From: the human T2T-CHM13v2.0 reference genome, Homo sapiens
Strand: one strand, 5' to 3'
Assembly: GCF_009914755.1 (NCBI RefSeq)
Contig: NC_060939.1
DNA length: 64,000 nucleotides
The notes under the pieces were generated by a model. The model did no database searches and was not told where the DNA came from. It saw nothing but the letters and a program-made list of their open reading frames with translations. Shown one piece after another: positions 61,181 to 64,000 of the stretch; positions within the stretch are counted from its first letter, which is position 1; each line of letters opens with the position of its first letter. Made by a program: the position numbers and the translations under genes.

Positions 61181-62206
61181 TTACATGCAAAGCACCCAGC
61201 CTGCAAGCAGACAGTTTCCCTCCCCAGCGCGGGCTGAGCCCCCGAAAACATTGGAGTTTCACAAATTCCTCTTTATGATGGTGACTTATGCCTGACCCAC
61301 CCTCCTCTTGGGGGGTCCTTCTTTGAGGGGCTGAGGCAGGTGGGCCTGCTGGCTCCAGCATGTTCCTTACCTCCCATGAAGTACCATGTACATGGTGCAG
61401 TCTAGGCTATGAAGTCCACTGGGCTACCCCACCATTACCCTCGGTTCCCATGACGGGGGTGCCAGAGTGGCCCAGGGGCAGCAGGGCTGTGGGAGACAGA
61501 GGGAGAGCCTGCCACAGCCTCCTCTCCAGTGACCACCTGGCGGCTCAGCTGACAGGATAGTCACAGCTGCTCAGGTCACCCTGGTCACCGGAGCATGCTG
61601 GGTGGGAGAACCACTCCCTGCAAGAGCGAAAAGCTGAGAACACTGCCAACCGTGCTGGCACCCCTGAGCCAGCCCGCCGCTGCAGAGAGCCCTCTACAAA
61701 GAGCCCGCTCTGTGCTGACGGAGGCTGGAACCTGGGGAAATCTGGCTCAGGGCTGCTTGCTGGGGCCCAGGGTGGGGTGGGGCTCCACCCCTGCCCTGGG
61801 ATGACTGTGGGTGAAACAGGACCCTGACTTGCAGGCCCCAGTCTGAGGTGGAGGGAGGGGGCCCAGACCAACCTCACCCGAATGTTAGGATAACAGGAAT
61901 TTCCCGCCAGGATGAGGCTGGCACTGGTTTCGGTTCTGTCCTGGGTGGAGGGGGAGGTCAGTAGTGGACTCTCCAATCAGTGGGGCCTTCACGGGCTCTG
62001 GTCGGAAGTTCCCACACACCCCCATCAGGAGGTCTGACTCCGGCCACCTCCTGCCTTGCCTGAGCCTGTCCTGCTCGTGGCCCTCCCCTTCTAAGCCTGT
62101 CTGAACACCCCTACCTTGGGGACCCCTCCTGTGTCTTCCTTCTCCAGGAAGCCCCTCTGATCCTCCCCCTCAGAGCTCTAGCCCTCCTCCAAGCTCCATC
62201 CCTGCC

Positions 62207-64000
62207 CTATCCCAGCCTTCCTATACAGCCCCACAAGTCAAAAAATCGTGACTAAAATGAAATATCTCCCTGACAAAAAACTAAAAAAAAAAAAAAAGAC
62301 ACTGAAGTCTCAATTAAGACTAAAAAAAATTAAAAAAAAATAAAGTATCCTTTTTAAAAGTGGCCACTGTAAAGCCTCCAAAACCCATTCCATTAACTTA
62401 AAAAACAAAAAAACCTATATAAGTAAATCAGTGGCCACTACCAAAACACAAACTAAAAACTTTACACTTATTAACAAAAAAATTTAAAAAAAAATTGAGC
62501 CTTCATTTTCGCCTTAAAATTCTCCTATGTTTATAATTCAAAAAAAAAAAAAAATCCAACAAATGACACATACTAACCAACTTAAAAGCATTAATGCCGT
62601 AATTCAACCCATGGAGAGTCTCCAACCTGAGTTGCCCTCTCAGGCCATAATCCCCCAAAATTGGCCTTTAATTATAATTAATCTAAAAGATTACTTTTTT
62701 ACCATTCTTCTGACAAAACAAAATTTAAAAAAATTTACTTTTACTATACCAGCCATAAATAATAAAAAACCAGCCACCAGGTTTCAGTAAAAAGTGTTAC
62801 GTCAAAAAATACTTAATAGTCCAACTATTTGTCAAACTTTTTTGTAACTCAAACTCTTCAACCAGTTAAACACAAGTTTTCAAACTGTTATTCATTATAT
62901 TAATAATATTTTGTATACTACAAAAACAAAAACAAATTAACTATTACACATTTCTACAAGCAAAGGTTACCAACACAAGACTGACAATAATATCTAATAA
63001 AATTCAAACCTCTAATCCTTTCCATTACTTAAAAATGTAAGTTAAAAAAAACCACAAAAAATAAAAATTAAACATTAAAAACATTAAATAACTTTCAAAA
63101 ATTACTAAAAAATATTAAACTCGGCCAACTCTAGACATCCCTACTTATGCCATGTCAAATTTGTTCTCTATCTTAAAAAAAAATCCAAAATTAAATAATG
63201 AACATTAACTCCAAAGACAACTAAAAAAATTAATTAAAAAAAGTTCAGTCAACCCAAATAAATAAAATGAATCACTTAGCCCCACTCCAACTTTTAATTT
63301 TTACTACTACACATTCTCCAACAGACATTATTGTTCAAAATACAAATCTTATGAAGTGGTCCTTCCTTCCTTACAGCACAATTAAGACTTACATTGTACT
63401 TAAATCAAATGACTACATTAATTAGACAAAACTACAAATAATAAAATTATATAAAAATAACCCAAATAAAATAATTGTTCCTTTAAACAAAAAACAAATT
63501 AAACAAGCCTTTATCAATTCTGGAATATAACAAATTGGTCTTACTAATTTTATAAAAAATTATTGACAATCATTACCCAAAAACAAAAATCTTCCAGTTT
63601 TTAAAATTGACTACTTAAATTTTACCTAAAATTACCAAACATAAACCTTTAAAAAATACTCTAACGGTGTTTACTAATAGTTCCAACAATAAAAAAACAA
63701 CTTACACCAGACCAAAAAAACAAGTCATTAAAACTCAATGTCACTTAACTCAAAAAACAAAATTAGCTACTGTCATTACAATATTACAAAATTTTAATCA
63801 GCCTATTAACATTGTATCAAATTCTACATATATAATACAAACTACAAAAAAAGTTAAAACAGCCCTAATCAAATATCAAATATAATCAGTTAAACCAACT
63901 ATTTAATTTGTTACAACAAACGGTAAAAAAAAAAATTTCCCATTTTATATTACTCATATTCAAACACACACTAATTTACCAAGGCCTTTAACTAAAACAA
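62207..64000 (+). mobile_element. HERV-K(HML-2) proviral fragment (end of pro/G-patch, RT, RNase H), G-to-A hypermutated, 5'-truncated, runs off the window
   Basis: Recognisable HML-2 motifs: YSPTSQKI (G-patch start), GTATCCTTTTT pro/pol overlap, [42 protein letters not shown] at 62896-62907 (from YIDD) and FTNSSNNK (from FTDGSSNG). No LTR or gag lies upstream. Confidence 0.93.

What the first reader, a model, noticed from the sequence alone, without database searches (positions are those of the whole stretch)
62340..63960. Editing context points beyond APOBEC3G alone; GGC/GGT motifs survive
Seen against the recalled consensus: GA is converted almost everywhere (GAT GAT>AAT AAT; TGG AAA>TAA AAA), and many GC and GT are also hit (GTGTGG>ATATAA, TTTGTA>TTTATA, GCT>ACT). 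TGGCC/CGGCC/TGGTC survive repeatedly (about 62361, 62432, 62662, 63122, 63357, 63536). Established: A3G prefers GG>AG, whereas A3F/D/H/B prefer GA>AA. Inference: a TC-preferring or promiscuous ancestral APOBEC3, or several enzymes together, acted on this genome. That would differ from the A3G-type signature reported for other hypermutated HML-2 loci.
Basis: partly seen in the sequence, partly recalled or inferred. Interest (0 to 1): 0.7.

Follow-up and report, generated by a model that had tools for sequence, protein, structure and literature searches.

The report
Hyperedited HERV-K fossil, non-A3G signature
This is a dead HERV-K (HML-2) fragment in which about 70% of all G became A before it entered the genome; the pattern is not that of APOBEC3G, which is already in print for this locus, and it hits GC almost as hard as GA.

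Summary
Window 62207-64000 is the start of a 3.5-kb LTR-less HML-2 pol-env fragment (to about 65690, outside the window). This is the 15q25.2 provirus.

Pairwise against natural genomic copies, 437-460 of 634-656 reference G are A (68-71%), against C>T 32-51 of 675-693. The flanks are clean.

Context-normalised rates are GA .90, GG .72, GC .68 and GT .41. Only positions +1 and +2 matter. A C at +2 protects (GCC .3, GTC .1-.2, GGC .4-.5), which explains the surviving TGGCC, CGGCC and TGGTC. The same pipeline gives a GG signature for the chr21 and chr3 proviruses.

The non-A3G reading is not new. A supplementary note of Knisbacher & Levanon 2016 says Anwar et al. 2013 named this locus and its two chrY duplicates as APOBEC3F-edited.

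Three points I did not find in print:
- Where editing is not saturated, GA and GC are hit about equally and GG and GT sit near background. This "GM" pattern has been ascribed to APOBEC3DE.
- An independent provirus (6p11.2) shows a weaker form of the pattern (GA above GC).
- An adjoining inverted LTR piece is edited on the same physical strand, which suggests one aberrant single-stranded cDNA.

The parts
62207..64000 (+). Part inside the window of the hyperedited HML-2 internal fragment: end of pro (G-patch), RT, RT thumb, start of RNase H. The fragment runs on outside the window to about 65690 (pol to the SU part of env). About 5 extra T follow at 65691-65695. An antisense LTR5-type piece follows at 65696-66353; its far end is an intact LTR terminus abutting host DNA. 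All of this was read as L013.
   Evidence: Inside the window:
- Homology to about 40 HML-2 copies starts at 62207.
- The domain map comes from the natural copy L031.
- In the edited copy itself Pfam finds only RVT_thumb, E 2.5e-4, below the cut-off.
- G falls from about 30% in the flank to 5-9%.

Outside the window:
- BLAST homology to six natural copies ends at about 65672; reading the junction by eye places the last env-like bases at about 65688-65690.
- G>A is 437-460 of 634-656, and 55-83% in each of 14 bins of 250 bp.
- Integrase_Zn, Rec and HERV-K_env_2 are found.
- The LTR piece hits LTR copies on the strand opposite to the internal hits. Its G>A on window + is 41-46 of 141-144 vs C>T 7-12 of 162-169.
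62207..62209 (+). Left junction: CTA shared by the host site and the ERV (3-bp microhomology); not an LTR end, no target-site duplication
   Evidence: Empty-site paralogue C15:75.72M compared with the filled site. 28 bp of the paralogue are absent at the filled site.
62361..62365 (+). Surviving TGGCC
   Evidence: GGC and GCC are cold contexts.
62432..62436 (+). Surviving TGGCC
62662..62666 (+). Surviving TGGCC
63122..63126 (+). Surviving CGGCC
63357..63361 (+). Surviving TGGTC
   Evidence: GTC is 0 of 6-9 in the finding range.
63536..63540 (+). Surviving TGGTC

Best explanation
This is the 15q25.2 HML-2 fossil: a pol-env cDNA fragment whose deaminated strand lost about 70% of its cytosines to an APOBEC3-type single-strand DNA deaminase during reverse transcription, before it was joined to the chromosome.

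The enzyme read the two bases 5' of the target C on the deaminated strand (+1 and +2 on the plus strand). It preferred 5'-(A/T)(T/G)C, that is plus-strand G[A/C][A/T], and avoided a G two bases upstream (plus-strand +2 C). This is not the APOBEC3G footprint. It fits a TC-preferring Z2-type enzyme. Because GC is hit about as well as GA where editing is unsaturated, it is closest to what two reviews and one SFV study ascribe to APOBEC3DE, rather than the pure GAA footprint of APOBEC3F.

In the internal fragment editing is so close to saturation that secondary contexts are also largely converted: GG partly through its own second G becoming A, and GT. Only +2 C sites survive in numbers.

Shown: strand bias, boundaries, the context hierarchy, and the difference from the A3G loci. 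Inferred: the identity of the enzyme, and that a single round of editing produced it.
For: 1. Strand-specific excess. G>A is 437-460 of 634-656, C>T 32-51 of 675-693, A>G 17-24 of 1146-1192; Fisher p=1e-154.

2. Confined to the insert. Against an empty-site paralogue the left flank has G>A 16/363 vs C>T 13/418 and the right flank 15/278 vs 19/285 (p=.35 and .60).

3. Only the 3' neighbours matter. Chi-square for +1 is 117-126 (p about 1e-25) and for +2 is 73-83 (p 1e-15 to 1e-17). Positions -3 to -1 give p=.047-.95 (the lowest is -2 against L031). Positions +3 and +4 are weak.

4. Hierarchy in the internal fragment: GA[not C] .97-.98, GC[not C] .88-.92, GG[not C] .86, GT[not C] .45-.48; GAC .80-.87, GGC .49-.52, GCC .29-.35, GTC .11-.18.

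5. Unsaturated data.
- LTR piece: GA 15-18 of 33-36, GC 15-19 of 31-39, GG 5-9 of 41-43, GT 2-5 of 28-36. GM vs GK Fisher p=9e-4 to 3e-6; GCC 0 of 8-12.
- Independent 6p11.2 provirus: GA 67-68 of 157-162, GC 24-28 of 85-95, GG 17-19 of 104-107, GT 9-10 of 104-108; p about 1e-9.

6. Positive control. The chr21 provirus gives GG 55-58 of 114-125 against GA .20-.22, GC .13-.18 and GT .14-.16. Only 4 of 24 copies stand out at all.

7. Print.
- This locus was named as APOBEC3F-edited by Anwar 2013, as reported in PMC4866542 Supplementary Note S8.
- A3D deaminates 5'TC and 5'GC (PMC4144255 passage; PMC3549941 passage).
- The GM context is 'characteristic of macaque APOBEC3DE' (PMC3937129 passages).
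Against: The literature on A3D is not consistent:
- Esnault 2008 gives GA/GT for hA3DE on HERV-K, from few mutations and not significant.
- Kim 2014 gives GGD with weak activity.
- Sato 2014 gives GA only.
- Dang 2006 itself could not be read.

In 6p11.2 GA exceeds GC (p=.02-.04), and GAA is its top triplet, as reported for A3F.

At 70% conversion the internal fragment cannot separate one promiscuous enzyme from several. GG with the second G kept is still edited in 16-18 of 30-33 cases, so an A3G share there is not excluded.

The references are natural copies 5-8% away at non-purine-transition sites, so some 'G' calls are wrong. Background G>A is .02-.16.
Confidence: 0.75

Rival explanations
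1. APOBEC3F alone, as already assigned in print, at a saturating dose. The GC, GG and GT conversions would be spill-over of a TTC-preferring enzyme.
For: GA is the top context everywhere. GAA is the hottest triplet in 6p11.2 (39-43 of 58-62). A3F = GAA and GAD+GGA in HIV. The assignment by Anwar 2013 is reported. Esnault 2008 found hA3F and hA3B most active on HERV-K.
Against: Where editing is only about 30%, GC equals GA (15-19 of 31-39 vs 15-18 of 33-36) while GG and GT stay near background. Spill-over should not pick GC over GG. The PMC3909203 abstract says non-A3G footprints in HIV are 'limited to GA->AA'.
Confidence: 0.2
2. Several deaminases together (for example A3F or A3H for GA, A3G for GG, another for GC), co-packaged or acting in successive rounds of trans-complemented replication.
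For: All four dinucleotides are far above background in the internal fragment. GG with the second G intact is edited in 16-18 of 30-33 cases. GGG is somewhat raised in 6p11.2 (7-9 of 23-24).
Against: In the LTR piece GG (5-9 of 41-43) and GGG (1-2 of 12-15) are near background, so no A3G share is visible on the same molecule. The +2 rule is the same in all four +1 classes. The profile along 3.5 kb is flat.
Confidence: 0.2
3. Not a deaminase: G>A through dTTP misincorporation by reverse transcriptase under dCTP shortage.
For: It would also act on the nascent strand and depend on the primer-terminal bases (+1 and +2 on the plus strand). This is my own inference; the model is recalled from the pre-APOBEC literature and no paper was read.
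Against: The cold contexts GCC, GTC and +2 C match published APOBEC3 rules. 70% replacement of one base would need an extreme pool imbalance.
Confidence: 0.03
4. Post-integration damage of the chromosomal locus, that is strand-coordinated clustered mutation of exposed single-stranded DNA.
For: The same physical strand is hit across the inverted junction.
Against: Both flanks are clean up to the junctions. The two chrY duplicates carry the same state (G 5.7%, 98% identity, same junctions).
Confidence: 0.02

Closest known systems
HML-2 proviruses 21q21.1 (K60) and 3q21.2 (KI), hypermutated by APOBEC3G (Lee 2008 and Armitage 2008, not held; Esnault 2008 PMC2531183, passages read)
   Same: Same virus group, a strand-specific G>A excess acquired before integration, many stop codons.
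   Different: Those copies are GG-type: GG .44-.50 and .27 with the other contexts .11-.22 in my pipeline. They are full-length with LTRs, and a quarter or less of their G is changed. Here GA and GC lead, about 70% of G is changed, and the element is a rearranged fragment.
[quoted passage not shown]
   Same: It is this locus (chr15:84829019-84832364, hg19) and its two chrY copies. The genome search finds exactly two 98% copies, both on contig C24.
   Different: I could not read Anwar 2013. As described in Note S8, their method tests known GG/GA motifs, so a GC component and the inverted LTR may not have been examined. K&L list 75 clustered sites for the locus against 437-460 raw G>A here.
GM-context (GA+GC) hypermutation ascribed to APOBEC3DE: macaque SFV and XMRV (Matsen 2014, PMC3937129); human A3DE on HIV-1 (Dang 2006, via PMC3549941 and PMC4144255)
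   Same: GA and GC both targeted, GG and GT not, in the unsaturated LTR piece and in 6p11.2.
   Different: Those are exogenous viruses in living hosts or in transfections. No endogenous retrovirus with this context turned up in my searches. Other papers give A3D other contexts.
Ultra-edited retroelements (Knisbacher & Levanon 2016, section 8 read in full)
   Same: Extreme G>A load on one strand of an LTR element.
   Different: Their largest values are 392 G>A transitions in 4,304 bp (zebra finch) and up to 234 edited sites in primates and rodents. This element has 437-460 raw G>A in about 3.45 kb, plus 41-46 in the LTR piece.

Membership tests
APOBEC3-hypermutated retroviral DNA (editing before integration) | G>A excess on the viral plus strand without a matching C>T excess | tested here: met
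   448/634 vs 32/687 against L031. The same holds with 4 further references and 8 more over 62207-65355.
APOBEC3-hypermutated retroviral DNA (editing before integration) | Excess stops at the borders of the insert | tested here: met
   Flanks against the empty-site paralogue: G>A 16/363 and 15/278, C>T 13/418 and 19/285.
APOBEC3-hypermutated retroviral DNA (editing before integration) | Dependence on the bases 3' of the G (5' of the C), not on those 5' of it | tested here: met
   +1 p about 1e-25, +2 p about 1e-16, -3 to -1 p=.047-.95.
APOBEC3G-type footprint | GG far above GA, GC and GT | tested here: not met
   GA .88-.91 is above GG .72-.73. In the LTR piece GG is 5-9 of 41-43 vs GA 15-18 of 33-36. 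The control locus L006 does meet this feature.
APOBEC3G-type footprint | T favoured at -1 (TGG, TGGG; PMC3909203 abstract, PMC4199767 passage) | tested here: not met
   T at -1 gives the lowest rate of the four bases.67-.70.
APOBEC3F-type footprint | GA, especially GAA, is the preferred context | tested here: met
   GAA 68-71 of 74-76. In 6p11.2 GAA is 39-43 of 58-62.
APOBEC3F-type footprint | Other dinucleotides not targeted ('limited to GA->AA', PMC3909203 abstract) | tested here: not met
   At about 30% editing, GC 15-19 of 31-39 equals GA. GCA is 10-12 of 15-19 and GCT 5-6 of 6-10.
APOBEC3DE-type 'GM' footprint | GA and GC both raised over GG and GT | tested here: met
   LTR piece GM 30-37 of 65-75 vs GK 9-12 of 69-79. 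6p11.2 GM 92-95 of 247-252 vs GK 26-28 of 208-213.
APOBEC3DE-type 'GM' footprint | The enzyme itself shown to produce this pattern on HML-2 DNA | not testable with these tools
   Needs biochemistry. Published descriptions of A3D disagree.
Canonical HML-2 provirus | Internal gag-pro-pol-env homology | tested here: met
   Partial: end of pro to the SU part of env only.
Canonical HML-2 provirus | Two LTRs in the orientation of the genes, and a target-site duplication | tested here: not met
   There is one partial LTR, antisense. The left end lies in pol. No duplication is present; 28 bp of target are missing.

The most novel reading that the evidence does not exclude
The insert is the fossil of one aberrant reverse-transcription product. 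In this reading a plus-strand strong-stop-like DNA started at U3 position 1. After about 690 nt it ran off its template, gained a few untemplated A and switched to genomic RNA inside env. It then continued as minus strand into pol. This chimeric strand stayed single-stranded unusually long and was deaminated almost to completion by an APOBEC3DE-like (GA+GC) enzyme of the hominoid ancestor. It was joined to the chromosome by its one legitimate LTR end and by end-joining at the other.

If so, the GM footprint, also seen independently in the 6p11.2 provirus, would be the first germline trace of A3D-type activity on HERV-K.
Probability: 0.3. Interest if true: 0.6.

Novelty: already known. Interest (0 to 1): 0.38.

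Why it matters
Hypermutated proviruses are the only direct record of which restriction factors met which retroviruses in our ancestors. For HERV-K the textbook answer is APOBEC3G. This locus shows that a TC/GC-preferring enzyme also hit HML-2, and did so more heavily than any primate example in the largest published screen.

That part is known in outline. If the GA+GC footprint and the same-strand editing across an inverted LTR hold up, they would give APOBEC3D, an enzyme with weak and disputed activity today, a visible past target. They would also preserve a snapshot of a failed reverse transcription.

A practical point: such copies inflate divergence-based ages and defeat protein-domain annotation. 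Pfam finds almost nothing in the window part.

Tried and rejected
- **Shared ancestry of 15q25.2 and 6p11.2** as the reason for their likeness: rejected. At sites other than purine transitions 6p11.2 is .071 away, while 6p21.1 is nearest at .052. Their likeness in BLAST comes from parallel G>A.
- **Post-integration inversion of an edited provirus:** predicts C>T on the window + strand in the LTR piece. Observed C>T is 7-12 of 162-169 against G>A 41-46 of 141-144.
- **LINE-1-mediated copy of a chimeric RNA:** no poly(A). The right end is exactly an LTR terminus, and there is no target-site duplication.
- **Autointegration:** the junction lies at about LTR position 690, not at an LTR end.
- **AID-like WRC editing:** would hit GTA and GTT. 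These are 1-2 of 7-9 and 1-3 of 7-12 in the LTR piece.
- **An editing gradient along the fragment:** none; 55-83% in every 250-bp bin.
- **Pfam on the edited copy:** only RVT_thumb below the cut-off in the window part.
- **Papers not held:** Anwar 2013, Lee 2008, Armitage 2008, Dang 2006.
- **Searches for this locus with hypermutation in the open library:** no primary description. Only the supplementary note of PMC4866542 mentions it.

Full report
**What is there**

From window 62207 the sequence turns from about 30% G to 5-9% G and about 50% A. This continues beyond the window end to about 65800 (L013 = window 61801-71800).

A search of the window's own assembly with 62340-63960 gave 40 scored matches:
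- the locus itself;
- two 98% copies on contig C24;
- HML-2 proviruses at 76-82% identity.

Homology to natural copies starts at 62207 and ends at about 65672-65690.

A natural relative (6p21.1; L004/L031) gives this domain order by Pfam, read through with X at stops: G-patch, RVT_1, RVT_thumb, RNase_H, Integrase_Zn, rve, Rec, HERV-K_env_2. In the edited copy only RVT_thumb (E 2.5e-4, below the cut-off) is found in the window part. Integrase_Zn, Rec and env_2 are found further on.

Place, strand, size and the pair of Y copies match the provirus listed as 15q25.2 by Subramanian et al. 2011. That entry reads chr15:84829020-84832364 (hg19), +, shared to orangutan, with Yq11.23a/b listed alongside. 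The words 'hypermut' and 'APOBEC' occur 0 times in that paper (PMC3228705, passages).

**Check of the observation**

I built no ancestor or consensus. Every count compares the element with one natural copy at a time, using that copy's context.

Over 62207-65355 against 9 copies (L006 and L012 cover only part of the range), the 7 full-length references gave:

| change | count |
|---|---|
| G>A | 382-411 of 552-584 |
| C>T | 27-42 of 608-626 |
| A>G | 16-21 of 1071-1104 |
| T>C | 35-57 of 846-863 |

Over the full fragment against 5 copies, G>A is 437-460 of 634-656. For L031, Fisher against C>T gives p=1e-154.

By context over 62207-65355, with 5 references: GA .88-.91, GC .66-.71, GG .72-.73, GT .39-.42. 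The finding range alone gives the same picture: GA .88-.91, GC .62-.68, GG .63-.66, GT .34-.41.

**Which positions matter**

Chi-square tests on 612-627 G sites with three references:

| position | result |
|---|---|
| +1 | chi-square 117-126, p about 1e-25 |
| +2 | chi-square 73-83, p 1e-15 to 1e-17 |
| +3, +4 | p .001-.02, C lowest |
| -1 to -3 | p .047-.95 |

A C at +2 protects in every class:

| +1 class | +2 = C | +2 not C |
|---|---|---|
| GA | .80-.87 | .97-.98 |
| GG | .49-.52 | .86 |
| GC | .29-.35 | .88-.92 |
| GT | .11-.18 | .45-.48 |

That accounts for the surviving TGGCC, CGGCC and TGGTC. It is a known rule rather than a new one. C at +1 or +2 is disfavoured for A3G (PMC3909203, abstract). 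GCC, GCG and GTC were 'not noticeably affected' by A3D, A3F, A3G or A3H in single-cycle HIV assays (PMC4117599, passage).

**Controls**

In the same pipeline:
- The chr21 provirus (L006) gives GG 55-58 of 114-125, with GA .20-.22, GC .13-.18 and GT .14-.16.
- In a 24-copy comparison only four copies stand out: this element; L006 (GG .44); the chr3 provirus L017 (GG .27); and 6p11.2 (L012/L030: GA .42, GC .28, GG .21, GT .14).
- The other 20 copies lie at .07-.22 (all but one value at or below .17).

So the method recovers the A3G signature where it has been described (Esnault 2008, PMC2531183, passages). It shows that this element differs.

**Saturation, and the unsaturated data**

With 70% of G gone, the internal fragment says little about primary preference. 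For GG, the first G is edited in 76-80 of 92-98 cases when the second G was also converted, but in 16-18 of 30-33 when it was kept. Part of the GG signal is therefore secondary: 5'-CC becomes 5'-UC.

Two less edited sequences are more telling.

*1. The inverted LTR piece.* Directly after the fragment, at 65696-66353 and outside the window, lies a 660-bp LTR5-type piece in antisense orientation. About 30% of the G on the window + strand are A: 41-46 of 141-144, against C>T 7-12 of 162-169 (p=2e-9). By context:

| context | edited |
|---|---|
| GA | 15-18 of 33-36 |
| GC | 15-19 of 31-39 |
| GG | 5-9 of 41-43 |
| GT | 2-5 of 28-36 |
| +2 A | about 52% |
| +2 T | about 38% |
| +2 G | about 20% |
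| +2 C | about 8% |
| GCA | 10-12 of 15-19 |
| GCT | 5-6 of 6-10 |
| GCC | 0 of 8-12 |

*2. The 6p11.2 provirus.* It is not a sister of this element: its non-purine-transition distance is .071, against .052 for the nearest copy. It shows GA 67-68 of 157-162, GC 24-28 of 85-95, GG 17-19 of 104-107 and GT 9-10 of 104-108. GM vs GK gives p about 1e-9.

The primary motif is thus plus-strand G[A/C][A/T], or 5'-(A/T)(T/G)C on the deaminated strand.

**Borders**

A paralogue at C15:75.72M carries both flanks without the insert.
- Against it the flanks show no G>A excess: 16/363 and 15/278, with C>T 13/418 and 19/285.
- The left junction lies inside pol, with 3 bp of microhomology.
- 28 bp of the paralogue are missing at the filled site, and there is no target-site duplication.
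- The right junction is an intact LTR terminus.
- The Y copies share both junctions and the edited state. Editing and rearrangement therefore predate that duplication.

**The inverted LTR (noticed in passing; inference)**

The LTR piece hits the LTRs of the 6p21.1 and Xq28 proviruses on the strand opposite to the internal hits, so it is antisense. Yet the same physical strand carries the deaminations in both parts, with the same context rule.

A post-integration inversion of an edited provirus predicts the opposite. L1 retroposition and autointegration do not fit the ends either.

What fits is one continuous strand. It would be 5'-U3(1 to about 690) in sense, then about 5 extra A, then env and pol in antisense. 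That describes a plus-strand strong-stop-like DNA that switched template. I rate this at about 0.3. It is not shown.

**What is in print**

- Knisbacher & Levanon 2016 (PMC4866542; passages, section 8 in full, supplement file 2 searched and part 1 read) list 75 clustered edited sites for chr15:84829019-84832364.
- Their Supplementary Note S8 states that Anwar et al. [quoted passage not shown] The non-A3G nature of the locus is therefore known. Anwar 2013 itself is not held.
- K&L's largest loads are 392 G>A in 4,304 bp (zebra finch) and up to 234 sites in primates and rodents. This element exceeds them in raw count.
- Esnault 2008 found 'no clear-cut evidence' for GA or GT editing, but examined only 20 full-length copies.
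- Ito et al. 2020 (PMC6955324, passages) describe GG and GA for human ERVs.

**Enzyme**

Sources supporting a TC plus GC preference for A3D:
- Two reviews ascribe it to human A3D(E), citing Dang 2006 (PMC3549941; PMC4144255).
- Matsen et al. 2014 call GM 'characteristic of macaque APOBEC3DE' (PMC3937129).

Sources against:
- Esnault 2008 gives GA/T.
- Kim 2014 gives GGD.
- Sato 2014 gives GA.

I therefore commit to a TC/GC-preferring, non-A3G APOBEC3 acting before integration, at confidence about 0.75. I lean to an A3D-like enzyme at about 0.4, over A3F alone at about 0.2 or a mixture at about 0.2.

**Limits**

- The references are diverged natural copies.
- No ape orthologues were available.
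- Four key papers and most of K&L's supplement were not read.
- My literature searches cover only the open library.

Noticed in passing
L013:3896-4553 (= window coordinates 65696-66353, outside the window): An LTR5-type LTR piece (about positions 1-690) lies antisense to the pol-env fragment, but is edited on the same physical strand. G>A is 41-46 of 141-144 on window +, against C>T 7-12 of 162-169. Its context is GA about equal to GC, both far above GG and GT. About 5 extra T sit at the junction, and the far end is an intact LTR terminus.
   Followed up: partly
L012 / L030 (G000:C6:61824400-61829400; the 6p11.2 provirus, K23 in Subramanian 2011): A second, independent HML-2 provirus has a moderate GA+GC-type G>A excess: GA .40-.43, GC .28-.30, GG .16-.18, GT .08-.09. 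G content is 14.5% against about 19% in other copies. It is not among the five HERVK elements named in K&L's Note S8.
   Followed up: partly
G000:C15:75721199-75723099 (L042), compared with window 61300-62206 and 66354-67300: An empty-site paralogue of the insertion site, 8-10% diverged. 28 bp present there are missing at the filled site, CTA microhomology sits at the left junction, and there is no target-site duplication.
   Followed up: yes
G000:C24:24606755-24612756 and C24:26226701-26232703 (L002, L003, L033, L034): There are two duplicates of the whole structure (flanks, edited fragment, inverted LTR) at 96-98% identity. They are part of a chr15-to-Y segmental duplication that happened after the editing.
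   Followed up: partly
L029 (G000:C19:55829000-55833450): A slightly raised GG (.22) and GA (.17) G>A fraction relative to the other unedited copies, which may be a weakly edited copy.
   Followed up: no
window 62207-62257: The first 50 bases or so of the fragment keep several G (for example in TCGTGAC) and show few conversions. The first 250-bp bin is the least edited, at 55-64%.
   Followed up: no
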